Shown here piece after piece: positions 28,248 through 62,631 of a DNA stretch of 64,000 nt. The stretch is taken from NCBI GenBank assembly GCA_030148705.1, contig JASBSY010000024.1, positions 21,212 through 85,211 of the forward strand, read 5' to 3'. Position 1 is the stretch's first letter, and every line of letters starts with the position of its first letter. Origin of the DNA: Pukyongia sp. GTDB lineage: Bacteria > Bacteroidota > Bacteroidia > Flavobacteriales > Flavobacteriaceae. The notes beneath the pieces are model-generated. The model was given only the letters and a program-made list of their open reading frames with translations, was not told where the DNA came from and searched no databases. The translations under genes and the position numbers were made by a program.

Positions 28248-28322
28248 GGGCGCTTAGCTCAGTTGGTTCAGAGCACTTGGTTTACACCCAAGGGGTCGGG
28301 GGTTCGAATCCCTCAGCGCCCA
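28248..28322 (+). tRNA. tRNA-Val(TAC), prophage integration target
   Basis: Full cloverleaf; anticodon arm CTTGG-TTTACAC-CCAAG. Confidence 0.97.
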
Positions 28323-28324
28323 CA
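28280..28324 (+). repeat. attL core (3' half of tRNA-Val)
   Basis: GTTTACACCCAAGGGGTCGGGGGTTCGAATCCCTCAGCGCCCACA, identical to 62209-62253. Confidence 0.96.
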
Positions 28325-28450: not shown

Positions 28451-29654
28451 GAAAGCTTCAGTTAAATTATTTACTTCAGATGGGGAAACCTCGCAGGGCT
28501 TTCCGGTGAAATTGGTGGTGTCTCATAAAGGGAAAACGCTGCGGCGGACCCTTGGGTATAGTCCGCTGGTTTATTGGGACTCGCTTCGGGGTAAACCTAC
28601 CCCTTCGCACCCGGATTATGAATCGCTTTATGGCCAGATGCTGGATATTGAAAAGAAAGCGTTAACCGCTCAGTTTCGCAATTCTACCGATGTGAACCTG
28701 GCTTTAAATGATCTGCTCGATGTGCCTGAAGCCAGGGATATTCCCCTGGAGTCGTATTTTAAAAAACAGATTTCCCTTATGCGTTCGCAGGGACGGCCGG
28801 GAAATGCCGATGCGTATGTCGCGGTGATGAATCAAATGGAATATTATTCACCGGGGTTGCTTTTAAGTGATATTGATGGGGTTTTATTGGAGCGGTTTAA
28901 ACGATATAAATTGAAAAGCTGTAGCGATAAGACGGTTAAAAATTACCTGGGTGTGCTCCGGGCACTCTATAATAAAGCGCTGGTGGATCCGGATGTGAAT
29001 CTAATGGATAAAGAGCCGTTTAAAGGTGTTATGACCGGGCTTATGGTAAAGCGAAGGCGGAAGAAAAACCGTTATTTGCTGCTAAAAGATATACAGCGAT
29101 TGGATGCGTTGTTCCACTCCAATAATCTTACACGAACTGAAAAGCGGGTGGTTGGATTGAGCTTGCTTCAGTTTTATTTGGGCGGCCTTAATCTGGTGGA
29201 TCTGTATTATTTAAAACGCTCTGCCTTTTATAAAGACAGGATCCTGCTATCCCGGAAAAAACTTGGTCGGTATGCGGAAGAATACGATGTGAGAGTGTTT
29301 CCTGTGGCGCGCGCGATTTTTGATTTTTTTGAAAAGGACCCTACTTATATCTTCCCATGGCGAAAAGATGAGCTGGGTTATAAAACCTTCAGAAGAAACC
29401 ATTACAGATCACTTTTAGCACTTCAGCAAAGACATCAAATTGAGTTACACCCAGTGGATGTAAGGCTTAATATTAATGCCTTTAGGCATACATTTGCCAC
29501 CCTGGGGAAGTTTGCCGGGGTGGACCCGGACATCATTAGGGAATTAATGGGCCACGAACGAAATGATATCGATACCGTTTATAAGGACCGGTATCCCGAA
29601 TCAGTAAGGGATGCAGCTCATGGTAAAATTATTGGAATTGGAACAGAGAAGTGA
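28449..29654 (+). CDS. int: Tyrosine integrase
   Basis: N-terminal arm-binding region, SAM-like core, NAFRHTFAT..ELMGH..TVY; adjacent to attL; TTG start. Confidence 0.92.
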   Translation: MKASVKLFTSDGETSQGFPVKLVVSHKGKTLRRTLGYSPLVYWDSLRGKPTPSHPDYESLYGQMLDIEKKALTAQFRNSTDVNLALNDLLDVPEARDIPLESYFKKQISLMRSQGRPGNADAYVAVMNQMEYYSPGLLLSDIDGVLLERFKRYKLKSCSDKTVKNYLGVLRALYNKALVDPDVNLMDKEPFKGVMTGLMVKRRRKKNRYLLLKDIQRLDALFHSNNLTRTEKRVVGLSLLQFYLGGLNLVDLYYLKRSAFYKDRILLSRKKLGRYAEEYDVRVFPVARAIFDFFEKDPTYIFPWRKDELGYKTFRRNHYRSLLALQQRHQIELHPVDVRLNINAFRHTFATLGKFAGVDPDIIRELMGHERNDIDTVYKDRYPESVRDAAHGKIIGIGTEK

Positions 29655-34783: not shown

Positions 34784-34876
34784 AAAAGTTTGATCTTATG
34801 ATAAGCGAAACATCGCCTGTAAATCAAAATTTTTGTGTGTCATTATTTTTTAAGGGGGGGTATCAATAGTAATGTT

Positions 34877-35326
34877 ATGAAAGTAGTAGGAAAAGGAAAT
34901 GGAAATCTAGTTAAGTCGGACCTGGTTAAGAAGGTCCCTGGTGCACCGCGGTTTTTTACTCCGCGAGCAAAGACGACGTATAAAAGATTGGGTAATATTT
35001 TAATCGAGGCCGGTGTGCTAAAATCCCGCCACTTACCTACTCTTGAAATTCTAGCACAGAATTATGATCAGTGGCAAAGTGCGATCATGGCAATAAATAA
35101 AGCCAACCGGAAAAAGGCTATGAGTGGTTACATCCAAAAGTTTACCACCGGTGCCACGAACATCTCCCCGGAGGTGACTCTAAAAGAAAAAGCTGAGAAA
35201 CAAATTTTTATTTGCCTGAAGCGCTTCGGCTTGGATCCGAAGAGCGAGAAAGAACTCGATGCCGGAAATCAACTCCAGCTCCCGTTTACACTGGATGATA
35301 TTCTAAGCAACAAGCGAGCAGTATAG
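34877..35326 (+). CDS. terS: Terminase small subunit (P27-like)
   Basis: Follows HNH; C-terminal RFGLDPKSEKEL motif. Confidence 0.8.
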   Translation: MKVVGKGNGNLVKSDLVKKVPGAPRFFTPRAKTTYKRLGNILIEAGVLKSRHLPTLEILAQNYDQWQSAIMAINKANRKKAMSGYIQKFTTGATNISPEVTLKEKAEKQIFICLKRFGLDPKSEKELDAGNQLQLPFTLDDILSNKRAV

Positions 35327-35926: not shown

Positions 35927-36547
35927 ATGGTTTTTGGATACGCGCGAGTAAGTACATCAGCACAAAAATTACAAATGCAAATAGACGCTTTGGAAGCATA
36001 CGGAATCGATACAAAAAACATCTTCACTGATGTAGCATCGGGAGCAAAATCCGACCGGCCCGGCCTTTCAGAATTGCTTATGAAACTACGTGAAGGAGAT
36101 ACGGTTGTGGTATGGAAGAGCTGCCGATTGGCCCGAAGCTTAAAACACATGATCACATTAATGGAGAATTTCAATTCCTTAAAGATCGAATTCAAGAGCA
36201 TCCAGGAACCATTCCTGGATACGAAGTCTGCTAATGGCCGCTTTATCTTCAATCTGTTTTCGGCACTCAACGAAATGGACCGGGAGATTAACCGCGAGCG
36301 AGTGATCACCGGATTAGAGGCCGCGCGTAAACGCGGTAAAGTAGGTGGCCGTCCAAAGGGACTGAGTAAAAGACTGCGGGATATATCTCCAGGTGTAGCT
36401 AGTATGTGGAAGGACCCTAACGCGTCTATCAATGATATAAAACGAATATTCGGCATCGCTCAGGCTTCGGTTTACAAGTGTGTGAGGTACCAGGGAATTA
36501 ATATCCATTCTATGGATCATAAGAATAAAGTCAAACGATCAAAGTGA
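35927..36547 (+). CDS. Small serine recombinase (resolvase/invertase)
   Basis: FGYARVST catalytic Ser, DRPGL, RLARSL, C-terminal HTH. Confidence 0.95.
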   Translation: MVFGYARVSTSAQKLQMQIDALEAYGIDTKNIFTDVASGAKSDRPGLSELLMKLREGDTVVVWKSCRLARSLKHMITLMENFNSLKIEFKSIQEPFLDTKSANGRFIFNLFSALNEMDREINRERVITGLEAARKRGKVGGRPKGLSKRLRDISPGVASMWKDPNASINDIKRIFGIAQASVYKCVRYQGINIHSMDHKNKVKRSK

Positions 36548-38663: not shown

Positions 38664-39557
38664 GTGAACCACGGATCATTATTTAGCGGAATTGGAGGTT
38701 TTGACCTGGCGGCAGAATGGATGGGGTGGGAGAATGTATTTCACTGTGAATGGAATGAGTTTGGCCAACGAGTTCTTAAATATTACTGGCCTAATGCAAT
38801 AAGTTATGACGACATTACAAAAACAGATTTCACTATTCACCGAGGATCAATCGACATCCTTACGGGAGGATTCCCCTGCCAACCATACAGCACCGCAGGA
38901 AAACGAAAAGGAAAAGAAGATGATCGCCACCTCTGGCCGGAAATGCTTAGAGCGATTCGAGAGATTGCCCCAAAGTACGTTGTGGGCGAAAACGTTTCTG
39001 GGCTACTTAGTTGGAACGGGGGGCTGGTATTCGAAGAGGTGCAAGCTGACCTGGAAGCTGAAGGGTACGAAGTACAACCGGTCCTACTTCCAGCTTGCGG
39101 CATCGGTGCGCCCCACAAAAGAGAAAGAGTATGGTTTGTTGCCTACTCCCCAAGCAATAGATGGAAAAGGGAAGGGAAGAAAATTGAGAATGAAAACCGG
39201 AAATCGGGATCCTCAGAAATTGGGAAATTGGAGGGGGGATTTAAAAGATTGGGCGAATCAAGGATTATTGCCAACTCCGAGCGCAAGCGACAATCGGGAT
39301 CGGGGCGGGCCGACGAACCCCTGCGTACAAAAACGGATTCAGAATGGAAAGCAAGTTGGGCTTACGATGATGATAGATGGCCAACTCAATCCCCGGTTTG
39401 TAGCAGAGATGATGGGATTTCCAGAGAATTGGACGGAATTACCTTTTCTAAATGGTTACAAGGATCAATTTCAGGATATGGAAACGCAATAGTACCGGAA
39501 TTGGCATTTGAATTATTTAAAGCAATAGAACAAACAAAATATTCATTAAACCTGTGA
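38664..39557 (+). CDS. C5-cytosine DNA methyltransferase, main polypeptide
   Basis: Motifs I SLFSGIGGFD, IV GGFPCQ, VI ENV, VIII HKRERVW and X GNAIVP; motif IX is absent. Confidence 0.9.
   Translation: MNHGSLFSGIGGFDLAAEWMGWENVFHCEWNEFGQRVLKYYWPNAISYDDITKTDFTIHRGSIDILTGGFPCQPYSTAGKRKGKEDDRHLWPEMLRAIREIAPKYVVGENVSGLLSWNGGLVFEEVQADLEAEGYEVQPVLLPACGIGAPHKRERVWFVAYSPSNRWKREGKKIENENRKSGSSEIGKLEGGFKRLGESRIIANSERKRQSGSGRADEPLRTKTDSEWKASWAYDDDRWPTQSPVCSRDDGISRELDGITFSKWLQGSISGYGNAIVPELAFELFKAIEQTKYSLNL
38806..39492 (+). CDS. Overlapping +1-frame polypeptide carrying methyltransferase motif IX
   Basis: 228-aa nested ORF with LLPTP repeats and QLNPRFVAEMMGFPENWT. Confidence 0.75.
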   Translation: MTTLQKQISLFTEDQSTSLREDSPANHTAPQENEKEKKMIATSGRKCLERFERLPQSTLWAKTFLGYLVGTGGWYSKRCKLTWKLKGTKYNRSYFQLAASVRPTKEKEYGLLPTPQAIDGKGKGRKLRMKTGNRDPQKLGNWRGDLKDWANQGLLPTPSASDNRDRGGPTNPCVQKRIQNGKQVGLTMMIDGQLNPRFVAEMMGFPENWTELPFLNGYKDQFQDMETQ

Positions 39558-39873: not shown

Positions 39874-40314
39874 ATGAAAAAATCGGGATATTATGGAATT
39901 GGAGCATTGAATATGAAAACAAGCCAAAATTATGGTACGTTGTTCCGTACGGCCCAAATTCTTAATGCTGATTTTATTTTTCTGATTGGATGTCGATTTA
40001 AAAAGCAGGCAACGGACACTATGAAATCGTGGCGACATATTCCCCTTTTTGAATATGTGGACTTTGAAGATTTTAATAAGCACCGCCCACATGATTGTAA
40101 ACTTGTCGGCATCGAAATGACAGAGACTGCGATCCCAATTAAGGAATTTAAACATCCAAAACAAGCATGCTATTTGCTTGGTGCGGAGGATAGTGGGCTA
40201 ACTAAAGAGGCTGTCAAAAATTGCCAGGAGATAATATTTCTTCCTGGAGAACGAAGTATGAATGTGTCAGTAGCAGGAAGTATTGTGCTATTCGACCGCA
40301 TAAACAAACAGTAG
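39874..40314 (+). CDS. SpoU/TrmH-family (SPOUT) RNA methyltransferase
   Basis: NYGTLFRTA, LLGAEDSGL and SMNVSVAGSIVLF motifs. Confidence 0.88.
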   Translation: MKKSGYYGIGALNMKTSQNYGTLFRTAQILNADFIFLIGCRFKKQATDTMKSWRHIPLFEYVDFEDFNKHRPHDCKLVGIEMTETAIPIKEFKHPKQACYLLGAEDSGLTKEAVKNCQEIIFLPGERSMNVSVAGSIVLFDRINKQ

Positions 40315-41329: not shown

Positions 41330-43111
41330 ATGAAGCCTACTAAAGAAATGACATCCTCAACCCCATGGACCTACGCTAACAATGTGCGAAGCGGAAAGAT
41401 CGCGTGCGGAAATTTCATAAAATTAGCAATAGAACGCTTTTACCGATGGGTGGATAATGCCGAGGCAGATGGATATTACATCGATCACGATGCCGGGATG
41501 CGCATAATAGAATTCTTTCCTAAACTCATTAATCACACAAAAGGAAGCATGGCCGGGAAGCCCTTTCACCTGGCACCCTTTCAGCAATTCACTTTATACA
41601 ATCTTTTCGCCTGGAAAAATAAAGAAACCGGCCTGCGGCGAATTAAAAAAGTGTACGATAAACGTGCAAAGAAGAACGGAAAATCGGCAGAGATGGCTGG
41701 GCTTAGTTTGTACGTAATGGCGGCCGATAACGAATATGAAGCCGAAGTATATGTGGGTGCCACTAAAGAGGACCAGGCGAAGATCTGTCACAACCAGGCA
41801 AAACAATTTATAGAATCCCCGGTGGCCAACCCGCTTCTTAAAGCGATAGGATTCAGTACCCGGCTCCGGGAAATCCGCTTCGAAGGAACCGCCAGTAAGA
41901 TGATGCCGCTGGGTGGAGATAGTAAAACCCAGGATGGAATCAATTCGCACGTATCCATTATAGACGAATACCACGCGCATAAGGACGATACGGTAAAAGA
42001 AAACCTGGAGAGTAGTAGTATTCAGCGCCGGCAACCCATCACCTATCACATCACCACTGCCGGGTTCAATACCCAGAGCGTGTGTTATAACTATGAGCAG
42101 GTGTGTAAGGATGTATTGCTGGGCACCAAAGAAGAGAACGACAGCTTGTGGATAATGATCCATGAACTCGATGAGGGTGATGATTGGCAGGATCCCGATA
42201 ATTGGATAAAAGCCAACCCCTTACTTCATAACGGATTGAGCCTGAAACGGCTAATGGAAGAGTATAACGATGCTATCCTTCAGCCCAGTAAACAGAATAA
42301 TTTTAAAACAAAGCACCTCAATATGTGGGTGGACGCTCCCGATGTGTTTATCTCGGATGAAGACTGGATGCGTAATTCTGAAAAGGTCCGTATCGAGAAC
42401 TTTATAAAATACGGATGCGAAGGAGCCATCGACCTGAGTACAACCACCGACCTTACCTCGCTGGGGTTTATTTCGTATCCGGACGATGAAGGGGTGCAGG
42501 ATTTGTTGGTGTTTAACTTTTGTCCTAAAGAAACAATCGACCAGCGGTCTAAAGCCGACAGGGTGCCGTACCGCTTTTGGAGCGAACAGAAGTATGCAGA
42601 CTTTATTACAGTTCCTAAAGAACTGGAAGATGAATTCGCGCACCTGCTTAACGATGTACCGCTTTTGGTGGCCACTCCGGGAAATGTGGTGGACTATAAT
42701 GTATTCGAAGATTATGCGGTATCCTATGCAAAACAACTTACAGCAAAGACGGTGAATTACGACCGGCACAACAGCACGCAGCTTATCACTAATATCGAAG
42801 AGGCCGGGGTAAAATGTATGCAGTTTGCGCAAACGATAATCTATTACAGCTATCCTACAAAGGAATTCGAAAAGCTGGCATTAAGCGGGAAATTGAGGCA
42901 TGGCGGAAATCCGGTATTGCGATGGTGCTTATCCGGCTGTGGGATCTACCGGGATCCAAATGAGAATATCCGGCTCAGTAAAAAGCACAGCTCAAAACGC
43001 ATCGATCCGTTAATTGCATCGGTGATGGCGTTGGCCGGGGTGCTCAATGTGGAGGAGCCCGAAAGAAAACAGAGTGTATATAACGACCCAAATAAAGAAT
43101 TCTATGCCTGA
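41330..43111 (+). CDS. terL: Terminase large subunit
   Basis: Walker A KKNGKS, IIDEYHAH, ITTAG, GAIDLS and RIDP motifs. Confidence 0.95.
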   Translation: MKPTKEMTSSTPWTYANNVRSGKIACGNFIKLAIERFYRWVDNAEADGYYIDHDAGMRIIEFFPKLINHTKGSMAGKPFHLAPFQQFTLYNLFAWKNKETGLRRIKKVYDKRAKKNGKSAEMAGLSLYVMAADNEYEAEVYVGATKEDQAKICHNQAKQFIESPVANPLLKAIGFSTRLREIRFEGTASKMMPLGGDSKTQDGINSHVSIIDEYHAHKDDTVKENLESSSIQRRQPITYHITTAGFNTQSVCYNYEQVCKDVLLGTKEENDSLWIMIHELDEGDDWQDPDNWIKANPLLHNGLSLKRLMEEYNDAILQPSKQNNFKTKHLNMWVDAPDVFISDEDWMRNSEKVRIENFIKYGCEGAIDLSTTTDLTSLGFISYPDDEGVQDLLVFNFCPKETIDQRSKADRVPYRFWSEQKYADFITVPKELEDEFAHLLNDVPLLVATPGNVVDYNVFEDYAVSYAKQLTAKTVNYDRHNSTQLITNIEEAGVKCMQFAQTIIYYSYPTKEFEKLALSGKLRHGGNPVLRWCLSGCGIYRDPNENIRLSKKHSSKRIDPLIASVMALAGVLNVEEPERKQSVYNDPNKEFYA

Positions 43112-45803: not shown

Positions 45804-47018
45804 ATGGAAAGTAGTATTACAAGAACGTTAAAGTCTATGGTATCGCTTTCACCGGGCGGAGAGAGCCGAAGCGCGGGGAATGTTTCGCTCTCTTCGCTTT
45901 TTGGTTTTGGTGCATCCGGAACTTCCGTTGTTAATCACGAAACCGCTCTTACCATCCCCGCACTCTTTAACGGGGTTGATCAAATTTCCAACGACATTGC
46001 AAAGCTTCCTAAAGGCGTTTATAGGAAAATAGATAACGGCCGCGAGGAAGTAAAGCACCGCATTAAATACCTTATCAATAAGGAGCCCAACAGGCAGATG
46101 GATGCCTTTACCTTCCATAAGATAATGACTCAGGCCGCAATTCTACGCGGCAACGGCCTGGCCGTGATCCTTCGCCATCCTAATACCGCAGCACTGGAAT
46201 CCCTGGTGTTTATCCACCCGGACGATATTCGGGACATACGGATGATTAAAGGCGATGTGTACTACATCACTAAATACGGTACGTTCACTTCAGACGAAGT
46301 AATTCACATTATGGGTTATACCGATAATGGCTGGCTCGGTAAAAGCGTTATCCGCTATGCAGCCGAAACACTGGGAATCGCTAAATCTGCTCAATCCTTT
46401 GCCGCTTGTAATTTCGATAATAGAGGTATTGGATATGGAGTAGTTCATACCGATAACGAAGTATCTCCTGAAGGTAAACAAAAGATCGAGGCCGGCATCA
46501 ATGCAAAGATGTCTATAAAAGATCGTTTCCGTACAGCTGTCATTGATGAAGGGATGAAGTATGAAGCTATTTCGGTTAGTGCTCAGGACGCGCAGTTAAT
46601 TGAGCAATCAAAGTTTTCTGTGATCGACATTTGCCGCTTCCTTAATATCTCCCCCAGGAAGGTGAAGGATTATACCATTAACAATTATGCTTCGGCCTAC
46701 CAGGATGCCACAGATCATGTAACAGACAGCATTCAGCCCTGGTCTAAAAAATTCGAAAACGAATACGACCGGAAGCTTTTCACCGCCACCGAAAAGGAAG
46801 ATCACTACGTAAAGTTTAATGATAATTACCTGCTTCGCGGGGACCTTACTGCAAAGTCTAATTACTATTTCAGGGCGACAGCCGGCGGATGGATGACAAT
46901 CAATGAGGTACGGGCTATGGAAGAACTCAATCCCATCGATGGAGGGGATGAGCCGCTTATCCCTATGAATATGCAGCAGGTAAAACAACTTGAAAATTCT
47001 ATGCAAGATGAAAAATAA
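45804..47018 (+). CDS. Portal protein, HK97 family
   Basis: PNRQMDAFTF, GNGLAVI, EVIHI, VIDEGMKY and TINEVRAMEELNP motifs. Confidence 0.95.
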   Translation: MESSITRTLKSMVSLSPGGESRSAGNVSLSSLFGFGASGTSVVNHETALTIPALFNGVDQISNDIAKLPKGVYRKIDNGREEVKHRIKYLINKEPNRQMDAFTFHKIMTQAAILRGNGLAVILRHPNTAALESLVFIHPDDIRDIRMIKGDVYYITKYGTFTSDEVIHIMGYTDNGWLGKSVIRYAAETLGIAKSAQSFAACNFDNRGIGYGVVHTDNEVSPEGKQKIEAGINAKMSIKDRFRTAVIDEGMKYEAISVSAQDAQLIEQSKFSVIDICRFLNISPRKVKDYTINNYASAYQDATDHVTDSIQPWSKKFENEYDRKLFTATEKEDHYVKFNDNYLLRGDLTAKSNYYFRATAGGWMTINEVRAMEELNPIDGGDEPLIPMNMQQVKQLENSMQDEK

Positions 47019-47634
47019 AGATTACCTACAAAACATAGACGGCGCCGAACGTCGGCACTTTGGGCCTGAAGTTCGCTATGAACTACGAGACGAAAAGGAT
47101 GTGGCCGGAGGCTATGCAGCTTTGTATAATGTCCGCGCAGATCTAGGATGGTTCGAAGAGGAGATCGCGCCCGGTGCGTTCGATGATGTTATAAATGATG
47201 ATGTTCGCGCACTCTTTAACCACGACCCTAACCATATCCTGGCACGATCCAAAGCAGGATCCGGAACGCTTCGCCTTTCAGTAGATGAGAAAGGCCTGGT
47301 GTACGATTTTGATATCCCGGACACTACTGCCGGCCGAGACCTTCGGGTTAATATGGAATTAGGCAATGTAACGCAATCTTCATTCGGGTTTTCCATCGAG
47401 GAAGAAGAGTGGGTGCGTCGAGACGGGAAGGAAAAAGACCTTCGCATTATAAAGAAATTCGGGCGGCTGTTCGATGTAAGCCCGGTAACCTTCCCGGCCT
47501 ATACCGATACGACAGTGGCAAAGCGGTCCTTTGAGGCCGTTCAAAAAGAAGAACAAGAAACCAGGGAACAGGATAAAAAAACGATGAGTGTATTCGAAGC
47601 TCGTCATAAGTTGAACGTAAATAAAAGTTTGTAA
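46990..47634 (+). CDS. Prohead protease, HK97 family
   Basis: GYAALYN, LFNHD, SSFGF and DVSPVTFPAY motifs; real start probably a few codons downstream. Confidence 0.93.
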   Translation: MKILCKMKNKDYLQNIDGAERRHFGPEVRYELRDEKDVAGGYAALYNVRADLGWFEEEIAPGAFDDVINDDVRALFNHDPNHILARSKAGSGTLRLSVDEKGLVYDFDIPDTTAGRDLRVNMELGNVTQSSFGFSIEEEEWVRRDGKEKDLRIIKKFGRLFDVSPVTFPAYTDTTVAKRSFEAVQKEEQETREQDKKTMSVFEARHKLNVNKSL

Positions 47635-47638
47635 ACAG

Positions 47639-48943
47639 ATGAAAACATCAGATCAGTTGAAACAAGAGCGAGCTTCAGAAATTAAAAAACAGGAAGCATT
47701 GCTAAAAAAAGCCGAAGCCGATAATAATCGAGACTTCACCGAAGATGAGCAAACGGAATTCAGGACCCTGAACACGTCCATCGAATCCTTCACTCAAAAG
47801 ATTAAGGATGCCGAAGAGCGCGAGGCTGCGCAAAAGCGCAATGCCGAAATGGCGGCCGCTTCGGGGGTTCCTAATTTGGACGCAGAGGAAAGAGAAAAAG
47901 GCAAGATCCAGAAGCGTGCATCCATCCTAACTGCCATCCGCAGAGGAATTGTAAATAAGCCGCTGGAAGGAGCCGAAAAAGAAATGGATGCCATCGGCCG
48001 ACAGGAAGATAGGGATGCCGATGTAAAGACTCCTGAGAACGCTCAGGTTGTTATCCCGATGAGTTTCCTGCGGGCCACTGCTCAAACAGTTTCGGAAGAC
48101 TCCGGAAACTACGGTGGATCGTTGGTGGTTGATCAGGCTCCGCGTGTGCAGATGGGCTTTAGTCCTCAAAGTGTGATCGAAGAACTTGGTGCGACAATAT
48201 GGACCGGCCTTTCCGGTGGGGATATTCCTCTTCCGGTAGCGAACGATTATACGTTTGCATGGTATGCGGAAACCGGCGCGATCACTCAGCAGAAGAACAC
48301 GATTACCGGTCCTACCCTTTCTCCTAAAAGGTTAGGTGCTGCCGTAGAAATCTCCAATCGTTTATTGGCTCAGGCATCTATGGATGTGGAGGCAATTATC
48401 CGCGCGAAGATCCTTAAAGGATATAACAACACTATTAACGTGGCGGCGATCAACGGTTCCGGTTCTTCCAACCAACCTGAAGGTGTCTTAAATAAGACCG
48501 GTATTGGGGCAGGATCTTCTGTGGATGCCGATGTACCTACAAAGGCGTTGGTAGCTGAATTAATTCAGTTGGTAATGGAGGCAGACAGCACTCAGGATAA
48601 GCTTGCTTTCCTTGGTTCTCCTGCCACTCAGTACCTGTTGGAAACTACCCTTCTGGATTCCGGAAGCGGGAAGTACATCAAAGAATTGAAGGACCAACTT
48701 TTAGGACATAAGTTTGTTGCCAGTACTCATGTGCCACAGCTTTCCGGTAATGAGGTGCTGATCTTCGGAAATTGGAGCGAACTGTTTATCGGACAGTGGG
48801 GATCACTTTCAGTATTGAGCGATCCTTTCGGCGCGGCACTTTCCAACAGTGTAAGACTTGTGCTTAACGGACACGCCGATGTTGCAATCGCACAGCCCGG
48901 CGCGTTCGCTGCGAACACATACTTCAATGAAACAGGAGTATAG
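47639..48943 (+). CDS. Major capsid protein, HK97 fold
   Basis: Coiled-coil delta domain; WYAETG, LSPKRLGA and IFGNWS motifs. Confidence 0.92.
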   Translation: MKTSDQLKQERASEIKKQEALLKKAEADNNRDFTEDEQTEFRTLNTSIESFTQKIKDAEEREAAQKRNAEMAAASGVPNLDAEEREKGKIQKRASILTAIRRGIVNKPLEGAEKEMDAIGRQEDRDADVKTPENAQVVIPMSFLRATAQTVSEDSGNYGGSLVVDQAPRVQMGFSPQSVIEELGATIWTGLSGGDIPLPVANDYTFAWYAETGAITQQKNTITGPTLSPKRLGAAVEISNRLLAQASMDVEAIIRAKILKGYNNTINVAAINGSGSSNQPEGVLNKTGIGAGSSVDADVPTKALVAELIQLVMEADSTQDKLAFLGSPATQYLLETTLLDSGSGKYIKELKDQLLGHKFVASTHVPQLSGNEVLIFGNWSELFIGQWGSLSVLSDPFGAALSNSVRLVLNGHADVAIAQPGAFAANTYFNETGV

Positions 48944-50998: not shown

Positions 50999-51406
50999 AT
51001 GCCAAATACAATTAGCGGAGTAGCGCGAATTAAGGTAGATAGTGAGAATATCTATCACGAAATCGATTGCGAATTATCCATGGACCTTGAAACAAAGGAA
51101 CGTGAAACAAAAGACACCGACGGAACCGAATACCGGGCAGGAAAGAAATCCTGGACCATGAGCGGCAACGGCCTTCAGGTAGAAGATACTACCGGCAGTG
51201 AGCACACCTTTAGTGCATTATTTGCGAAATACGATGCCGCCACAGAGGTAGCAGTTGAGTTTACAACCGATAGTACCGGAGATAAGTACTACTCAGGAAA
51301 CGGGCTCATCACGAACCTTACTATAAATGCAACGGTTAATGAGGATCCTTCAGCTTCCTGGAGCATCCAGGGAACAGGAGCGCTAACCGAAGCTACTGTA
51401 GTTTAA
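50999..51406 (+). CDS. Major tail tube protein (TP901-1-like)
   Basis: ETKDTDG..KKSWTMSGNG..IQGTGAL. Confidence 0.85.
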   Translation: MPNTISGVARIKVDSENIYHEIDCELSMDLETKERETKDTDGTEYRAGKKSWTMSGNGLQVEDTTGSEHTFSALFAKYDAATEVAVEFTTDSTGDKYYSGNGLITNLTINATVNEDPSASWSIQGTGALTEATVV

Positions 51407-51416
51407 AAGCATCGTT

Positions 51417-51863
51417 ATGGACCAGGTACTAATTAACGGTGTTAACTACCCTATCAATTTAGGGTATAAATGCCTTCGGCCGCTTAGTGAGCGTTTGGGC
51501 CACAAAAGCCCTATTACTACCATCAGAACAGTGGGTGAGATTTTTCAGCCGCTGTTCGATGCGTATGCAGATATCGACGAATCGGAGTTCGACCAGGTAG
51601 ATTCAGAGAATATTACCTACGAACAGATTGAACTTTTCCGCCACCTTACCATCTGTGCAATACAGGCAGCCACACCGGGTATCGATTTTGATATCCCGGA
51701 GGAAGATAGTTTTACTTTCTTCACAAATAATGCTGCTGCTCTTGGCGTGATCATGGTAGGATTTGTAAAGGCAACCGTACCGCAAGACACCGCGATAGAG
51801 CCGGGAAAGCCGAAGCGGGCGAAGAGGGGTCCGAAGAAGAATATGAAAAAGCAAAAGGCATAA
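51417..51863 (+). CDS. Tail assembly chaperone G
   Basis: Between tail tube and tape measure; contains GGGAAAG. Confidence 0.8.
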   Translation: MDQVLINGVNYPINLGYKCLRPLSERLGHKSPITTIRTVGEIFQPLFDAYADIDESEFDQVDSENITYEQIELFRHLTICAIQAATPGIDFDIPEEDSFTFFTNNAAALGVIMVGFVKATVPQDTAIEPGKPKRAKRGPKKNMKKQKA

Positions 51864-52216
51864 ATGAAGTTACCTGGGATGAATTGGAGCAGTTGGCGTG
51901 CGGGGAGATAGGACTTGGTTATACCGAATTCTACTCTCTCACGCCGCGCCAATTCTATAACATCCAAAAGGGGTATTTCAATAAGTTGGAGCGGGTTGAA
52001 AATCAGAAGTGGTTACACACAAAAGTGATGAGTTATATGATATATCTCAACATTCCAACCAAAAAAGCAAAAAAGAAAAGCCTTGCAGAGTTTGATGAGG
52101 CTTTCTTTAAAACTAAAAAGAAGTACCAGGTAAAGGAAAAGCAATCCGGGCTATCAGTGGAAGAGCGTAAAAAACTGGCGATGGAGTTATGGTCCCGGAT
52201 CGATGCGAAGAATTAA
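51803..52216 (+). CDS. Tail chaperone T moiety, expressed as a GT fusion by -1 frameshift
   Basis: Slippery G GGA AAG at 51803-51809; the -1 frame is open through to 52216. Confidence 0.85.
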   Translation, partial: GKAEAGEEGSEEEYEKAKGINEVTWDELEQLACGEIGLGYTEFYSLTPRQFYNIQKGYFNKLERVENQKWLHTKVMSYMIYLNIPTKKAKKKSLAEFDEAFFKTKKKYQVKEKQSGLSVEERKKLAMELWSRIDAKN

Positions 52217-52289
52217 CGCGGCATGGAGCAGTTGGCAGCTCGCCTGCTTGCTTTGCAGGAGGTCACAGGTTCGAATCCTGTTGCCGCTA
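52217..52289 (+). tRNA. Atypical tRNA-like element: fMet-type body, GCT anticodon, short variable loop
   Basis: Perfect cloverleaf CGCGGCA/TG/GAGC-AGTTGGCA-GCTC/G/CCTGC-TTGCTTT-GCAGG/AGGTC/ACAGG-TTCGAAT-CCTGT/TGCCGCT/A. Confidence 0.9.
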
Positions 52290-52320
52290 CTAGAAGTATA
52301 ATTTAAAAGGGAATTGCCGA

Positions 52321-54606
52321 AGCGCGAGTTTAAGTAAAATAAACATTAAGTTTCATGCAGATCTGAAAGAATTCTCTTCTCAGATGCAGAATGCGGAGCG
52401 CTCCATGCAGAAGTTCGGGAAGAAACTGCGGGGTGCGGGCGCGGCACTTTCGGTAGGACTTACAGCACCTATTGTGGCTCTTGGCGCAAAAGGTGTTTTT
52501 GCTTTCGACCAGCAGGCAAAAGCCATCGCCCAAGTGGAAGCCGGTATAAAAAGTACCGGTGGCGCTGCCGGAAAAACGGCAACCGAACTAACAAAAATGG
52601 CCGCTTCCTTACAGGGAAGTACGCTCTTTGGCGACGAAGAGATATTAAAAGACGTTACAGCACAGCTTCTTACATTCACAAACATTGCAGGGACTCAGTT
52701 CGACAGGACCCAAAAGGCTGTACTAGATCTGGCCACCCGCCTCGATGGTGACTTGAAAAGCGCCTCCATACAATTAGGAAAAGCCCTTAACGATCCTGTG
52801 GCTAATTTAAGCGCCTTGTCCCGGTCCGGGATTCAATTCTCCACAGACCAGAAAAAGGTAATAAAATCCCTGGTAGAAACCGGGCGAATTGCCGAGGCGC
52901 AAACAGTTATACTCGATGAACTTGAAAAGCAATATGGCGGAGCTGCCGAAGCAGCCGCAAAGGCAGGATTAGGTCCGTTTAAACAGCTGGGTAATGCCCT
53001 GGGGGATCTTACCGAAGATTTTGGAAAGATCATCGTGGAAGCCCTGCTTCCGTTCGTGGAAAAACTAAAGTCGGTTGTATCGTCGCTTCAAAACCTCGAT
53101 GACGGTACAAAGAAAACCATTGCGATAGTCGCGGGATTTGCCGCTGCTTTAGGCCCGATATTGTTTACAATAGGATACCTGGCCACCAATGTTATTCCCG
53201 GATTGATCGTTGCTTTAAAAGCGCTTCAGCTGGCTATTATGACCAATCCGATAGGTGCTTTAGCCACTACGGTAACTGTATTTGCCGGAGCGGTATTGCT
53301 CGCAAATACCCGCCTTACATCACTTACCGATGCAAATAAAGAGTTTGCAAACCTGAGCGCACAGGCCGGGCGAAGTATTGCGGCCGAAAAGGTGGCGCTG
53401 GATAACCTTATCCGCACAGCTAACAATGAGCGTATAAGTAAAGAAAAGCGCCTCGATGCTATAAAAGAACTTAATCGAGTTGTTCCACAATATAACGGTG
53501 AGCTCACTCTTGAAACATTAAATACAGATAAGGCGCGTGAGGCCACTGATAAGTATGTTCAGAGTTTATTGTTAAAGGCTAAAGTACAGGCCGCTCAGGA
53601 AAAATTGGTTGAAGTAGAAAGACAGCTGCTCGATCTTATGCTTGGACAATCGGAAGCGGCAGATCCTTCCTTCTGGCAAAACCTGGGTAACGCGGTTACC
53701 TCCTTCGGAAGCCAGTCGGCTTATATGGGTAAAACCCTGGAGACGGTTGTGGATAATATGCAGGAGGAAGAAAAACAACTTACCTCGCTTCAGAAAAAAT
53801 TACTCGGCTTCCTTCAGTCCAATCAGGATGTGGTAGATGGTCTTAAAGGACAGGAAACTACCCTGGCCGATGTGGGGGCTCAGGGGGATCAAACAAGGAA
53901 ATCGCTCACAAAGCTTACCGGGGTGATGAATACCATGTTCGTGGATAACGAACCAACTGAGTTATATACCTGGGTGGATGCAATGAACCAGGTGGGGGCT
54001 GCGGCTAATAAGCTTATCCCCACACTAACAAAGGCACAACAGACAGCCGGGGCGGTAGCGGCATCCATCAACGAACAGGTGGGTCCTGCTATACAGGATG
54101 CGGCGGCCACCATCGCTTCGGGATTTGGTAAGATATTGGCGGGGTTCGCAACCGGGACCAGCGGCCTTCGGGATATTGCGAACCTTATTATTGGCACCCT
54201 GGGAGATCTTATGATCCGCCTGGGTGAGATTGCTATTCAGGCGGGAATTGGTATCCAGGCAATTAAGGCTGCCTTCGAAAGCTTAAACCCTGCTGTGGCT
54301 ATTGCCGCCGGTATTGCCCTTATTGCGTTTGGTTCGCTTATTAAATCGGCAATACAATCTGCACCGCCGGATGTTGCCCTGGCTCAGGGTGGATTGGTAC
54401 GCGGGGAAACCCTTGCTTTAATTGGGGATAACCGTAATGCTGCCTTCGATCCGGAAGTGGTTGCACCCCTGAGTAAGCTACGAGACTTTATAAATCCTAA
54501 CCAGGGCGCCGGCGGGGTCGATGTGCATATAAGCGGAAAGCTTGAAGGAAACGACCTGAAGCTTGTTATCGACAGGCAAATAGAAAGAAAGATTCGGTTA
54601 AAATGA
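52321..54606 (+). CDS. Tail tape measure protein (ORF track start 52384; open extension from AGC at 52321)
   Basis: Ala/Gly-rich helical protein, QLGKALNDP motif; in-frame extension ASLSKINIKFHADLKEFSSQ has no ATG/GTG/TTG. Confidence 0.9.
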   Translation, partial: SASLSKINIKFHADLKEFSSQMQNAERSMQKFGKKLRGAGAALSVGLTAPIVALGAKGVFAFDQQAKAIAQVEAGIKSTGGAAGKTATELTKMAASLQGSTLFGDEEILKDVTAQLLTFTNIAGTQFDRTQKAVLDLATRLDGDLKSASIQLGKALNDPVANLSALSRSGIQFSTDQKKVIKSLVETGRIAEAQTVILDELEKQYGGAAEAAAKAGLGPFKQLGNALGDLTEDFGKIIVEALLPFVEKLKSVVSSLQNLDDGTKKTIAIVAGFAAALGPILFTIGYLATNVIPGLIVALKALQLAIMTNPIGALATTVTVFAGAVLLANTRLTSLTDANKEFANLSAQAGRSIAAEKVALDNLIRTANNERISKEKRLDAIKELNRVVPQYNGELTLETLNTDKAREATDKYVQSLLLKAKVQAAQEKLVEVERQLLDLMLGQSEAADPSFWQNLGNAVTSFGSQSAYMGKTLETVVDNMQEEEKQLTSLQKKLLGFLQSNQDVVDGLKGQETTLADVGAQGDQTRKSLTKLTGVMNTMFVDNEPTELYTWVDAMNQVGAAANKLIPTLTKAQQTAGAVAASINEQVGPAIQDAAATIASGFGKILAGFATGTSGLRDIANLIIGTLGDLMIRLGEIAIQAGIGIQAIKAAFESLNPAVAIAAGIALIAFGSLIKSAIQSAPPDVALAQGGLVRGETLALIGDNRNAAFDPEVVAPLSKLRDFINPNQGAGGVDVHISGKLEGNDLKLVIDRQIERKIRLK

Positions 54607-60964: not shown

Positions 60965-61561
60965 ATGATACCAATATTTGATAGTGGACACGCGGGGTTA
61001 ATAAACGGATTCTACGAAACTCCGGGAAAGCGATCTCCTAATTGGGAGTGCGGAATATTTTATGAAGGGATGGGAAATCGCTGGGCGGTTAACCGATTGA
61101 TAGAGCTGTGCGATCGTGCTGGAATTCCTTATTATCATGTATCTCCGGAACTATATGATGTGAGCCTTCAGGAGCGAGTAAAACGGGCAAATGATATTTA
61201 CGCCGTAAACAAGAACGTTTATTTCTTATCCATTCATCACAATGCAGGAGGCGGCCATGGAATTGAGGGGTTTACGTCTATAGGAGAAACGACATCTGAT
61301 AAGATAGCTGAAGTGTTCCTGCAAAATTTTAAAGCTGATTTTGCCCACGATACAACATTAAGAACCGATGTGTCTGATGGGGATCTCGATAAAGAATCGA
61401 ACTTCTTTGTGCTTCGAAATACGCTCTGCCCATCCGTACTACTGGAACTTGAATTTATGGATAGTAAGTCCGGGTATTTGAACTGCTGGAGTGAGACGGT
61501 CATGGCTCTAAAAGTTGAATCTATGTTTAAAAGCATAGTTAAAGTATATAACGAATTGTAA
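60965..61561 (+). CDS. Endolysin, N-acetylmuramoyl-L-alanine amidase (Amidase_3)
   Basis: DSGH, YEG, SIHHNA and SVLLELEFM motifs. Confidence 0.9.
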   Translation: MIPIFDSGHAGLINGFYETPGKRSPNWECGIFYEGMGNRWAVNRLIELCDRAGIPYYHVSPELYDVSLQERVKRANDIYAVNKNVYFLSIHHNAGGGHGIEGFTSIGETTSDKIAEVFLQNFKADFAHDTTLRTDVSDGDLDKESNFFVLRNTLCPSVLLELEFMDSKSGYLNCWSETVMALKVESMFKSIVKVYNEL

Positions 61562-62208: not shown

Positions 62209-62253
62209 GTTTACACCCAAGGGGTCGGGGGTTCGAATCCCTCAGCGCCCACA
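62209..62253 (+). repeat. attR core (displaced 3' half of tRNA-Val)
   Basis: Identical to 28280-28324; followed by the host hairpin AATCCCGGTT...AACCGGGATT. Confidence 0.96.
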
Positions 62254-62529: not shown

Positions 62530-62604
62530 GGGTCATTAACTCAGTTGGTTCAGAGTGTTACCTTGACAGGGTAGAAGTCACTGGTTCGAATCCAGTATGA
62601 CCCA
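62530..62604 (+). tRNA. tRNA-Val(GAC)
   Basis: Cloverleaf with anticodon arm TTACC-TTGACAG-GGTAG; TAATTTTG promoter box at 62511-62518. Confidence 0.96.
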
Positions 62605-62631
62605 CATCAAATAGAATTCCGGTGCGACAGC

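What the first reader, a model, noticed from the sequence alone, without database searches (positions are those of the whole stretch)
52217..52386. Initiator-type tRNA with a GCT anticodon next to a tape-measure gene that appears to start at AGC: candidate phage-private non-AUG initiation system
Seen: a perfect 73-nt cloverleaf begins on the base right after the tail-chaperone stop. It carries the initiator/formylation features C1xU72 mismatch, G2-C71, C3-G70, A11-U24 and A73, but its anticodon is GCT (52250-52252) instead of CAT. It has no long variable arm, so it is not a normal tRNA-Ser. Starting 31 nt after it, the tape-measure frame reads AGC-GCG-AGT-TTA... = (x)ASLSKINIKFHADLKEFSSQ-M. 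Between the in-frame stop (52291) and the ATG at 52384 there is no ATG, GTG or TTG. The ATG at 52384 lacks the A-rich Bacteroidetes start context, and AAAGGGAA lies 8 nt before the AGC. AGC is exactly the codon read by GCT, so ATG to AGC and CAT to GCT are fully compensatory double changes. Knowledge: anticodon-swapped E. coli initiator tRNAs can start translation at their cognate non-AUG codons. The extension also resembles, as I recall it, the usual MA...INxKFxADL tape-measure N-terminus. Inference: tape-measure translation, and so tail assembly, may be locked to this RNA, acting as a timing or stoichiometry control or as a key that other elements cannot use. Caveats: the anticodon stem lacks the three G-C pairs of true initiators, and the charging synthetase is unknown.
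Basis: partly seen in the sequence, partly recalled or inferred. Interest (0 to 1): 0.97.

Follow-up and report, generated by a model that had tools for sequence, protein, structure and literature searches.

The report
Phage initiator tRNA with private start codon
A prophage in a marine Flavobacteriaceae genome carries an initiator-type tRNA whose anticodon matches the non-AUG codon (AGC) at the start of the adjacent tail tape-measure gene, and the anticodon and that codon change together in related phages, so these phages seem to define their own start codon.

Summary

**The tRNA.** Window 52217-52289 is a real tRNA (ARAGORN; Rfam 56 bits). It has initiator hallmarks: C1xU72 mismatch, G2:C71, C3:G70, A11:U24 and A73. 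Its anticodon is GCU, it has U37-U38, and it has no long variable arm.

**The start codon.** 31 nt downstream, AGC (52321) sits exactly where homologous tape-measure proteins have Met-1 (MASLSKINIKF...).

**Covariation.** In 11 distinct tRNA-bearing relatives the codon at that position is always the exact complement of the anticodon:
- GCU/AGC in 6 loci
- ACU/AGU in 1 locus
- CCU/AGG in 4 loci

There were at least four independent switches. Three relatives without the tRNA have ATG. An in-frame stop usually lies directly before the AGN. One relative has no ATG/GTG/TTG in its first 60 codons. The N-terminal extension is under purifying selection.

**Other phages.**
- Gut Bacteroidales phages, including the cultured Bacteroides phage BS-TP2, carry the same tRNA type with GAC or AAC anticodons. 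They have GUC/GUU starts behind the same GCYGA context.
- A rumen phage with a CCU version has candidate AGG starts on its portal and major capsid genes.

**Open points.** The charged amino acid is unknown (Arg is inferred). The anticodon stem lacks the three G:C pairs of true initiators. No natural precedent turned up in the literature searches; engineered ones exist.

The parts
28280..28324 (+). attL: 45-nt direct repeat inside the 3' part of host tRNA-Val(UAC) (28248-28323). Left end of the prophage.
   Evidence: Exact 45-nt repeat with 62209-62253. tRNA-Val. Integrase at 28449-29654, PF13102/PF00589.
62209..62253 (+). attR: second copy of the 45-nt repeat. Right end of the roughly 34-kb prophage.
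50999..51406 (+). Tail tube protein gene.
   Evidence: PF06199 Phage_tail_2, E 3.7e-9.
51417..51863 (+). Tail assembly chaperone, gpG-like by position. The candidate -1 slippery site G AAA AAG lies at 51845-51851.
   Evidence: ORF list. Sequence and frames read. Same gene order as in L001-L004. No Pfam hit.
51845..52216 (+). -1 frame extension of the chaperone (gpGT-like 'T' part). It ends with TAA at 52214-52216, directly before the tRNA.
   Evidence: The -1 frame is open from 51845. Called ORF 51884-52216. Homologous ...WDELEQMACGE... ORFs sit at the same place in L001 and L002.
52217..52289 (+). Initiator-type tRNA with anticodon GCU (52250-52252), U37 and U38. It has C1xU72, G2:C71, C3:G70, A11:U24 and A73. 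It has no long variable arm, and CCA is not encoded (A73 is followed by CUA).
   Evidence: ARAGORN. Rfam 56.2 bits. Family-wide cloverleaf with 12 of 20 pairs showing compensatory changes and none broken. 1:72 is mismatched in all 41 unique family members. Best INPHARED matches are phage tRNA-Met genes at about 78% identity.
52290..52320 (+). 31-nt leader of the tape-measure gene, with an A-run at 52305-52308 (positions -16 to -13) and the conserved GCCGA at 52316-52320 directly before the start codon.
   Evidence: Context table over 11 loci: -1 A 11/11, -2 G 9 or A 2, -3 T 8 or C 3, -4 C 10/11, -5 G 9/11, plus an A-run upstream. An A-rich motif about 11-14 nt upstream is the Bacteroidia initiation signal (PMC6847099).
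52321..52323 (+). AGC, the inferred start codon of the tape-measure gene and the exact complement of the tRNA anticodon.
   Evidence: It aligns with Met-1 of homologues. Codon/anticodon covariation across 11 loci.
52321..54606 (+). Tail tape-measure protein gene, 761 codons counted from AGC. Gene callers start it at the internal ATG 52384 (740 aa).
   Evidence: PF06791 TMP_2. 3585 homologues. pN/pS of codons 2-21 is 0.44 against 0.58 for codons 22-101.

Best explanation
The prophage encodes a dedicated initiator tRNA whose anticodon has changed from CAU to GCU. The start codon of the adjacent tape-measure gene has changed from AUG to AGC.

**Proposed steps.**
1. The tRNA is co-transcribed with the late tail operon and cut out by RNase P and RNase Z. 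CCA is added by the host enzyme.
2. A host synthetase that tolerates any base at position 34 charges it. ArgRS is the best guess, because every tape-measure-linked member keeps C35-U36 together with A73, G2:C71 and C3:G70.
3. The 1:72 mismatch with G2:C71 and C3:G70 makes it a substrate for formylation and keeps it off EF-Tu.
4. It enters the 30S P site and pairs with AGC. U37 may also pair with the invariant A at -1.
5. The full-length tape-measure protein, including the conserved N-terminal 21 residues, is therefore made only when this phage RNA is present.

**Status of each step.** Shown by sequence comparison: the tRNA, its initiator features, the position of AGC at Met-1, the covariation, and the constraint on the extension. 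Inferred: expression, processing, charging identity, formylation, P-site use, and the biological purpose.

**Likely purpose.** Gating or down-tuning of a low-copy structural protein by a phage-made RNA. The tRNA-plus-start unit may also behave as a self-locking cassette.
For: 1. **AGC lies at Met-1 of homologues.** P0003 is MASLSKINIKFFADL and P0004 is MASLSKINIRFNADL, against (x)ASLSKINIKFHADL in the window. 95 of 119 homologues have the full N-terminal segment after a called start.

2. **Covariation.** The pairs are:
   - GCU/AGC in the window, L004, L098, L113, L116 and L120
   - ACU/AGU in L003
   - CCU/AGG in L101, L042, L044 and L118

   That is 11 of 11. By my own arithmetic, the chance of a full match under random pairing of these labels is 6!·4!/11! 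= 4e-4.

3. **Independent switches.** With the anticodon masked, each tRNA's nearest relative often has a different anticodon: L113 GCU with L044 CCU (88% identity), L004 GCU with L042 CCU (88%), L116 GCU with L003 ACU (85%), L120 GCU with L101 CCU. This gives at least four coupled switches. The TMP tree shows the same interleaving.

4. **Controls without the tRNA** (L001, L002, L117) all have ATG at that codon.

5. **The frame cannot extend upstream.** In 8 of 11 loci the codon just before AGN is an in-frame stop.

6. **Canonical starts are far away or absent.** L101 has no ATG/GTG/TTG in its first 60 codons. The first canonical start is at codon +28 in L116 and about +32 in L120.

7. **The extension is constrained.** pN/pS is 0.44 for codons 2-21 and 0.58 for codons 22-101 among tRNA-bearing loci.

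8. **Initiator features are not imposed by the search pattern.** Among 41 unique tRNAs, 1:72 is mismatched in 41 (six different base combinations), G2:C71 holds in 40, C3:G70 in 40 and A73 in 40. The cloverleaf is kept by compensatory changes.

9. **The same logic appears in other phages.**
   - GAC/AAC versions in gut Bacteroidales phages pair with GCYGA-GUC/GUU starts. AAC loci use GUU only, 8 to 0. GAC loci use GUC 10 and GUU 12, as G34 wobble predicts.
   - One homologue has canonical GTG at the same spot.
   - A rumen phage with a CCU tRNA has candidate AGG starts on its portal gene (Pfam profile position 2 aligns to residue 8, first canonical start at +31) and on its capsid gene.

10. 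**Experimental precedent.** E. coli initiator tRNA with an AAC anticodon starts translation at GUU with Val or formyl-Val (bioRxiv 10.1101/2021.05.25.445580). Other anticodon mutants are reviewed in PMC11744186.
Against: - There is no experimental evidence of any kind: no expression, charging, ribosome profiling or N-terminal peptide data.
- The anticodon stem keeps only G30:C40 of the three G:C pairs that E. coli initiators need for P-site and IF3 selection.
- U37 is abnormal for any tRNA.
- The charging enzyme is unknown. ArgRS normally needs A20 (PMC9976931), and position 20 is C or U here.
- CCA is not encoded.
- Most loci, including the window, keep an in-frame ATG at codon 22. Most also keep Ile codons (ATA/ATT) at codons 7 and 9. 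A shorter product made with the host initiator therefore cannot be excluded.
- The tRNA and the start codon are adjacent, so they can be inherited or exchanged as one unit. That inflates the apparent number of independent observations, but it does not explain the coupled switches.
Confidence: 0.8

Rival explanations
1. The tape-measure protein starts at the annotated ATG (52384) or at a near-cognate Ile codon, using the host initiator. The N-terminal 21 codons are a decaying remnant. The tRNA is unrelated cargo, for example a codon supplement or a decoy against anticodon nucleases.
For: An in-frame ATG at codon 22 is present in the window and in 5 of the other 10 loci. Gene callers choose it. 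Phage tRNAs with altered anticodon loops have been proposed to evade host anticodon nucleases (PMC10264068, listed).
Against: - Codon and anticodon match in 11 of 11 loci, with coupled switches.
- The extension is as constrained as the downstream coding region.
- L101 has no canonical start in 60 codons, and L116 and L120 have none before codons 28-32.
- The universal 1:72 mismatch argues against an elongator role.
- A 5-nt variable region, A73 and A11:U24 fail the tRNA-Ser identity rules.
Confidence: 0.06
2. The tRNA serves mainly as an RNA-processing signal ('punctuation'). RNase P and RNase Z cleavage separates the tape-measure mRNA from the tube and chaperone mRNA. The host initiator then starts weakly at AGN, helped by the GCYGA and A-rich context.
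For: The tRNA sits exactly between the chaperone stop and the tape-measure leader in the compact loci, which lack the insertions seen in L003, L116 and L120. The conserved leader motif is shown. A low tape-measure copy number would fit weak initiation; this rests on general knowledge of siphovirus tails.
Against: - A host CAU initiator gives no reason for the start codon to track the phage anticodon (AGC, AGU, AGG).
- In L003, L116 and L120 the tRNA lies 0.9-1.3 kb from the start.
- In gut and rumen phages it lies 0.5-4.9 kb from its target genes.
- Processing and decoding are not mutually exclusive.
Confidence: 0.05
3. This concerns the ultimate cause and is compatible with the main mechanism. 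The tRNA plus altered start codon is a selfish, self-locking cassette, at times carried with an HNH homing endonuclease. Once ATG has become AGN the phage cannot lose the tRNA. The changed start region may also protect the allele from the endonuclease.
For: - An HNH endonuclease gene plus a small ORF lies between the tRNA and the AGN start in L003 and L120/L121, two separate lineages. L116/L012 has an insertion of about 0.9 kb at the same place that I did not annotate.
- tRNA-bearing and tRNA-less phages are interleaved on the TMP tree, which suggests repeated gain, loss or exchange.
Against: - 8 of 11 loci have no endonuclease.
- In gut and rumen phages the tRNA serves several dispersed genes, which looks more like a regulon than a single-site cassette.
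- No target-site analysis was done.
Confidence: 0.25

Closest known systems
Engineered anticodon-swapped E. coli initiator tRNAs: amber initiator CUA, i-tRNA(GAC), i-tRNA(AAC)
   Same: An initiator body (1:72 mismatch, G2:C71, C3:G70, A11:U24) carries a non-CAU anticodon. It starts translation at the complementary non-AUG codon with the amino acid dictated by the new anticodon. For i-tRNA(AAC) at GUU that is Val or formyl-Val (bioRxiv 10.1101/2021.05.25.445580; PMC11744186). The gut-phage tRNAs found here carry the very same AAC and GAC anticodons.
   Different: Those tRNAs are laboratory constructs that keep the three G:C pairs and A37. The phage tRNAs are natural. They have lost two of the three G:C pairs, have U37-U38, and come with a conserved mRNA context (GCYGA) and with target genes whose start codons have co-evolved.
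Bacterial initiator tRNA-fMet (CAU), including phage-encoded tRNA-Met genes
   Same: Overall sequence: the best database matches are phage tRNA-Met genes at about 78% identity. Acceptor and D-arm determinants also match.
   Different: The anticodon, the anticodon stem, positions 37 and 38, and so the amino acid and the codon read.
Stop-codon recoding in gut phages with phage-encoded suppressor tRNAs (code 15 and code 4 phages; bioRxiv 10.1101/2021.08.26.457843 and PMC9523058, listed)
   Same: A phage-encoded tRNA changes how particular codons in late or structural genes are read, so that those genes depend on a phage RNA.
   Different: That system acts in elongation at stop codons. This one acts at initiation and creates new start codons. 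No sense or stop codon is reassigned inside genes.
Natural non-AUG starts read by the normal initiator (GUG, UUG, the AUU of infC)
   Same: A non-AUG start is used to set the expression level.
   Different: Those codons are near-cognates of CAU and are read by wobble. AGC, AGU, AGG, GUC and GUU differ at the second and/or third position and are matched by a separate tRNA.
Extended codon-anticodon interaction at initiation (position 37 of the initiator with mRNA position -1); recalled from the literature, not checked here
   Same: U37 faces an invariant A at -1, and U38 faces G or A at -2 in 10 of 11 loci.
   Different: There is no covariation to prove it. L118 has A38 opposite A at -2. The remainder of the GCYGA motif (-3 to -5) is unexplained.

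Membership tests
Bacterial initiator tRNA | Mismatch (no Watson-Crick pair) at 1:72 | tested here: met
   C1xU72 in the window. All 41 unique family members are mismatched: CxA 21, CxU 9, CxC 4, UxC 3, AxA 3, AxC 1.
Bacterial initiator tRNA | Formylation determinants G2:C71, C3:G70 and A73 | tested here: met
   Present in the window. 40 of 41 for each across the family.
Bacterial initiator tRNA | A11:U24 in the D stem (elongators have Y11:R24) | tested here: met
   GAGC/GCUC in the window. Invariant in the 11 tape-measure-linked tRNAs. For the wider set this pair was part of the search pattern.
Bacterial initiator tRNA | Three consecutive G:C pairs 29:41, 30:40 and 31:39 | tested here: not met
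   The window has U29:A41, G30:C40 and C31:G39. Only G30:C40 is invariant in the tape-measure-linked set. The CAU-anticodon relative L036 does have all three.
Bacterial initiator tRNA | CAU anticodon and charging with methionine | tested here: not met
   The anticodon is GCU. MetRS needs C34, A35 and U36 (PMC9976931).
Bacterial initiator tRNA | Actually used in the P site to start translation | not testable with these tools
   Supported only indirectly, by codon/anticodon covariation at the Met-1 position.
Elongator tRNA-Ser(GCU) | Long variable arm, G73 and C11:G24 (SerRS identity) | tested here: not met
   5-nt variable region, A73 and A11:U24. Identity set from PMC9976931. ARAGORN's 'Ser' label reflects the anticodon only.
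tRNA-Arg (ArgRS substrate) | C35, U/G36, A/G73, G2:C71, C3:G70 | tested here: met
   All are present in every NCU member. Identity set from PMC9976931.
tRNA-Arg (ArgRS substrate) | A20, the main determinant in E. coli | tested here: not met
   Position 20 is C in the window and U or C in the others (D loops). Arg charging is therefore only a hypothesis.
Phage tail tape-measure protein (TMP_2, PF06791) | Pfam domain, gene size, and position after the tube and G/GT chaperone genes | tested here: met
   PF06791 is precomputed for P0001 and most homologues. My own scan gave 25.5 bits against a cut-off of 30.2. Gene order.
gpG/gpGT tail chaperone pair | Two overlapping ORFs joined by a -1 frameshift at a slippery heptamer just upstream of the tape-measure gene | tested here: inconclusive
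   The -1 frame is open from 51845 across G AAA AAG. There is no Pfam hit and frameshifting was not tested.

The most novel reading that the evidence does not exclude
Phages of Bacteroidota carry a family of natural 'reprogrammed' initiator tRNAs that create private start codons. The family is defined by an initiator-type acceptor and D arm with the anticodon loop U33-NNN-U37-U38. The start codons are AGC, AGU and AGG in marine Flavobacteriaceae siphoviruses and a rumen phage, and GUC and GUU in common human-gut Bacteroides and Prevotella phages. These codons head structural or late genes: tape-measure, portal, capsid, and a set of unannotated small basic proteins. They are marked by a shared GCYGA context. 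Only anticodon position 34 drifts. That is the one position host ArgRS and ValRS do not read, which implies that these proteins begin with (formyl-)Arg or (formyl-)Val. Initiation, and not only elongation or termination, would then be a recoding layer that viruses exploit. Standard gene callers also mis-start or miss these genes systematically.
Probability: 0.65. Interest if true: 0.97.

Novelty: categorically new. Interest (0 to 1): 0.94.

Why it matters
- **Basic biology.** If confirmed, this would be the first natural case I know of in which a dedicated initiator tRNA with a non-CAU anticodon defines a new start codon. Six full-text literature searches on this question found none. Until now this was only an engineering trick.
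- **Genetic code.** It would extend viral manipulation of the code from stop-codon recoding to initiation.
- **Phage regulation.** It would give a simple RNA-based switch that makes key virion genes translatable only in the presence of a phage product.
- **Annotation.** It would explain a class of annotation errors: truncated tape-measure, portal and small-protein calls, and missing PHROG families.
- **Synthetic biology.** It would supply naturally evolved orthogonal initiator/start-codon pairs and a conserved mRNA context.
- **Testability.** A cultured system exists. Bacteroides phage BS-TP2 was reported in 33.5% of 930 gut virome datasets from healthy donors in China (PMC12694917), so the claim can be tested directly.

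Tried and rejected
- **blastn of 51400-53400 against INPHARED:** no match.
- **Exact anticodon-arm pattern in IMG/VR:** no match.
- **First general pattern:** it had one N too many and found nothing. I corrected it and checked it on known copies before the productive scans.
- **Is the 0.9-1.3 kb insertion in L003/L012 a self-splicing intron?** Rfam found only the tRNAs. The insertion holds an HNH endonuclease gene.
- **Naive search for 'stop followed directly by GTC/GTT':** no enrichment. The signal appeared only once the GCYGA context was used.
- **Other GCYGA-AGY starts in the window:** only the tape-measure gene is convincing. GCCGA-AGC at 34476 and at 51809-51816 head short out-of-frame ORFs and look like chance.
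- **PHROG search of the gut small basic proteins:** no family.
- **Exact-cluster look-up to name the host:** no names returned. The host was inferred from FabH homologues instead.
- **Initiator-like tRNAs with A37 and a non-A35 anticodon:** only an ordinary tRNA-Thr (U1:A72 paired) and a non-tRNA hit.
- **Co-occurrence of the prophage SpoU-family methyltransferase with the tRNA in other loci:** none in the DNA held.
- **Pairing of GCYGA with the anticodon stem, the acceptor stem or the 16S 3' tail:** examined by eye; nothing consistent beyond U37:A-1 and U38:R-2.
- **Possibility that the AGC is a sequencing error:** rejected because the arrangement recurs in independent samples.
Full report
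**Setting.** The window is a piece of an uncultured marine Flavobacteriaceae genome. Its FabH is 76-79% identical to those of Marixanthomonas, Marinirhabdus and Luteirhabdus. A prophage of about 34 kb is integrated in tRNA-Val(UAC). A 45-nt direct repeat at 28280-28324 and 62209-62253 marks its ends, and the integrase lies at 28449-29654. It is an HK97-like siphovirus:
- large terminase 41330-43111
- portal 45804-47018
- prohead protease 46990-47634
- major capsid protein 47639-48943
- connector and head-completion genes
- tail tube 50999-51406
- two chaperone ORFs, 51417-51863 and a -1 frame ORF open from 51845 across G AAA AAG to 52216
- the tRNA, then the tape-measure gene, distal tail genes, and an amidase at 60965-61561

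**The observation.** ARAGORN and Rfam (56.2 bits) both call a tRNA at 52217-52289. It starts on the base after the chaperone stop. Reading the sequence gives:
- C1xU72, G2:C71, C3:G70
- A11:U24
- A73
- a 5-nt variable region
- the anticodon loop U-U-GCU-U-U
- the anticodon stem C:G, C:G, U:A, G:C, C:G

The body is initiator-like. The best INPHARED matches are phage tRNA-Met genes at about 78% identity. It fails the identity rules for tRNA-Ser, which are a long variable arm, G73 and C11:G24 (PMC9976931).

31 nt downstream the tape-measure frame reads AGC GCG AGT TTA AGT AAA ATA AAC ATT AAG TTT... up to the annotated ATG at 52384. There is no ATG, GTG or TTG after the in-frame TAG at 52291.

**Is AGC the Met-1 position?** Yes. 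I searched with the tape-measure protein including the extension. Most homologues cover 98-99% of the query, and their N-termini read MASLSKINIKFFADLKQFSS... The window's (x)ASLSKINIKFHADLKEFSSQ aligns residue for residue, with AGC opposite Met-1. 95 of 119 homologues carry this segment after a called start. Most of the rest are 'truncated' calls. Those I examined turned out to be one of two things:
- Mis-calls with a normal ATG upstream and no tRNA: L001, and L117. L002 is a correctly called ATG relative that also lacks the tRNA.
- Further examples of the same phenomenon.

**Covariation.** Eleven distinct loci from unrelated metagenomes and MAGs carry an initiator-type tRNA between the chaperone and the tape-measure gene. 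In every one the codon at the Met-1 position is the Watson-Crick complement of the anticodon:

| Anticodon / codon | Loci |
|---|---|
| GCU / AGC | window, L004, L098 (Allomuricauda), L113, L116 (=L012), L120 (=L121) |
| ACU / AGU | L003 |
| CCU / AGG | L101 (Flagellimonas), L042 (=L115), L044 (=L069, L111, L112), L118 (=L119) |

- By my arithmetic, random pairing of these labels gives a full match with probability about 4e-4.
- The classes are not clades. With the anticodon masked, nearest-neighbour tRNAs differ in anticodon: L113/L044, L004/L042, L116/L003 and L120/L101. The TMP tree interleaves GCU, CCU, ACU and ATG/no-tRNA lineages. At least four anticodon changes were therefore each accompanied by the matching start-codon change.
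- The AGC-to-AGU case is telling. G34 could read AGU by wobble, yet the anticodon became A34.

**Further support for AGN as the start.**
- In 8 of 11 loci the preceding codon is an in-frame stop, so the reading frame cannot begin earlier.
- L101 has no ATG/GTG/TTG in its first 60 codons. The first canonical start is at codon 28 in L116 and about codon 32 in L120.
- Among the tRNA-bearing loci, codons 2-21 have pN/pS 0.44, against 0.58 for codons 22-101. The extension is therefore translated in these very lineages.
- The leader has an A-run at about -16 to -13. This resembles the A-rich initiation motif described for Flavobacterium johnsoniae (PMC6847099).
- A conserved pentamer GCYGA ends at -1. 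The counts are -1 A 11/11, -2 R 11/11, -3 Y 11/11, -4 C 10/11 and -5 G 9/11.

**The tRNA family.** I scanned with a pattern that fixes only the D arm and U33/U37/U38. It returned 86 IMG/VR contigs, 18 genome contigs and 8 metagenome contigs.
- The acceptor stem was not part of the pattern. Even so, all 41 unique tRNAs have a 1:72 mismatch in six base combinations. G2:C71, C3:G70 and A73 are each present in 40 of 41.
- RNAalifold on the 11 tape-measure-linked tRNAs gives a clean cloverleaf. 12 of 20 pairs show compensatory changes, none is broken, 1:72 is unpaired and G30:C40 is invariant.
- Anticodons over all pattern hits: GAC 71, AAC 22, CCU 5, GCU 4, CAU 2, ACU 1.
- A companion search for A37 versions found no further members. 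U37-U38 is therefore a hallmark of the family.

**Generalisation to gut phages.** In gut Bacteroidales phages and prophages (Prevotella, Bacteroides, Muribaculaceae), GAC or AAC tRNAs lie upstream of one or more small basic-protein genes of about 60-120 aa. In one lineage they also lie upstream of a PAPS-reductase-like gene.
- These genes begin (AGGAGGAA)-N-GCYGA-GUC/GUU-AGA-AGA. A stop often sits at -1, and the first canonical start lies 8-33 codons downstream.
- AAC loci use GUU only (8 to 0). GAC loci use GUC (10) and GUU (12), as G34 wobble allows (Fisher p = 0.03).
- Database gene calls for one such family are mostly truncated to 61 aa (MYNAGRQYGLG...). One homologue has canonical GTG at exactly the GUY position in the same context. 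This confirms that the position is the start.
- The cultured temperate Bacteroides phage BS-TP2 (PQ571275.1) has an unannotated GAC tRNA and a GCUGA-GUC site 33 nt upstream of the annotated start of gp53.

**Generalisation to a rumen phage.** Phage L109 has a CCU version of the tRNA, with A1xC72.
- Its portal ORF begins at GCGGA-AGG. Pfam Head-tail_con profile position 2 aligns to residue 8, and the first canonical start is at +31.
- Its major capsid ORF begins at GCUGA-AGG, with a stop at -1. A GTG lies at codon +7, so this case is weaker.

**Mechanism.**
- *Shown:* the tRNA, its initiator determinants, the position of the non-AUG codon, the covariation, and the selective constraint.
- *From established knowledge:* a 1:72 mismatch with G2:C71 and C3:G70 directs formylation and disfavours EF-Tu. 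Anticodon-swapped E. coli initiators start at the complementary codon with the amino acid set by the new anticodon. One example is i-tRNA(AAC) at GUU with Val or fVal, and others are in PMC11744186.
- *Inferred:* the phage tRNA is released from the late transcript, receives CCA, is charged and formylated by host enzymes, and pairs with AGC in the P site. U37 may add a pair with A-1.

Variation in the family is confined to anticodon position 34. Positions 35-36 stay C-U (tape-measure and rumen groups) or A-C (gut group). These are the anticodon determinants of bacterial ArgRS and ValRS, and neither enzyme needs position 34 (identity table in PMC9976931). I therefore predict Arg for the window's tRNA and Val for the gut tRNAs. 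The Arg prediction has a caveat: A20, the main ArgRS determinant in E. coli, is absent.

**Purpose (speculative).**
- Gating or down-tuning of low-copy or late structural proteins by a phage-made RNA.
- Protection against expression in the wrong context.
- A self-locking cassette. An HNH endonuclease gene sits between the tRNA and the start in L003 and L120. L116/L012 has an unannotated insertion of about 0.9 kb at the same place.

**Weak points.**
- There is no experiment.
- Two of the three initiator G:C pairs are missing.
- U37 is unusual.
- The charging enzyme is unknown.
- The internal ATG at codon 22 and the Ile codons at 7 and 9 could give shorter products.
- The tRNA and the codon are physically linked.
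- The GCYGA motif is unexplained.

**Novelty.** Six of the seven full-text searches bore on this question. They found engineered non-AUG initiators and phage suppressor-tRNA recoding. They found no natural initiator tRNA with a reassigned anticodon and a matched start codon. The paper describing BS-TP2 mentions neither tRNAs nor start codons. I rate the finding as categorically new as a natural system. Its mechanism was anticipated by engineering work.

Noticed in passing
L005-L108 (IMG/VR and GTDB loci); L122 = Bacteroides phage BS-TP2 PQ571275.1, tRNA at L122:4991-5063, GUC start at L122:5514: A large family of initiator-type tRNAs with GAC or AAC anticodons in human and mouse gut Bacteroidales phages and prophages. 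They are matched by GCYGA-GUC/GUU starts on small basic proteins and on a PAPS-reductase-like gene. Database annotations truncate or miss these genes. The BS-TP2 tRNA is unannotated.
   Followed up: yes
L109 (Ga0247611_10001039): tRNA at 8028, portal start at 10322, major capsid start at 12894; also L074 and L110: A rumen phage with a CCU initiator-type tRNA (A1xC72). Its portal and major capsid ORFs appear to start at AGG behind GCGGA or GCTGA and an SD-like AGGAG. The capsid case is weaker because a GTG lies at codon 7.
   Followed up: partly
L003:1684-2887; L120:1125-2409 (=L121:633-1989); L116/L012, about 0.9 kb after the tRNA: In L003 and L120/L121, a small ORF plus an HNH endonuclease gene is inserted between the tRNA and the AGN start. 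L116/L012 has an insertion at the same place that I did not annotate. This suggests a link between the tRNA/start unit and homing-type mobility. Rfam finds no intron there.
   Followed up: partly
window 39874-40314 (+); neighbours at 35927-36547 and 38664-39557: The prophage encodes a minimal SpoU/TrmH-family RNA 2'-O-methyltransferase (PF00588, E 4e-22; weak similarity to RlmB, TrmH and TrmL). It sits in a block with a serine recombinase and a C5 DNA methylase that separates the small terminase (34835-35326) from the large terminase (41330). It could modify the phage tRNA or rRNA. No homologue was found in the other loci held.
   Followed up: partly
L036 (IMGVR_UViG_3300029583_000016) and L093 (Mediterranea sp. 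MAG): Versions of the same tRNA type with a CAU anticodon and U37-U38. L036 keeps all three G:C pairs and has U1xC72. It could be an intermediate between ordinary initiators and the reprogrammed ones.
   Followed up: no
gut-phage start sites, e.g. L011, L013, L033, L072; L123:110-130: A strong Shine-Dalgarno-like AGGAGGAA lies about 6 nt upstream of many GUY starts. Bacteroidia ribosomes are reported to be blind to SD sequences (PMC13000453, PMC7797042), so its role there is unexplained.
   Followed up: no
L064, 1921 nt after the tRNA start: One exception in the gut set: AGGAGGAACGCTGA-GCC-AGA in a GAC-tRNA locus. The middle base of the codon mismatches the anticodon. It could be a dead gene, a sequencing error or tolerated mispairing.
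   Followed up: no
gut small basic proteins: The GUY-started small proteins are Arg/Lys-rich and most end in a conserved ...NG (MGLNNG, LSNG, GLTNG, NGSNG). They have no PHROG family, and their function is unknown.
   Followed up: partly
window 51809-51816 (+): A second GCCGA-AGC octamer lies inside the chaperone gene, in the tape-measure frame phase. It is followed by only a 10-codon ORF, so it is probably chance.
   Followed up: yes
window 62530-62605 (+): A second, different tRNA-Val (GAC) lies just outside attR. It is a host gene and is unrelated to the phage GAC initiator-type tRNAs.
   Followed up: yes
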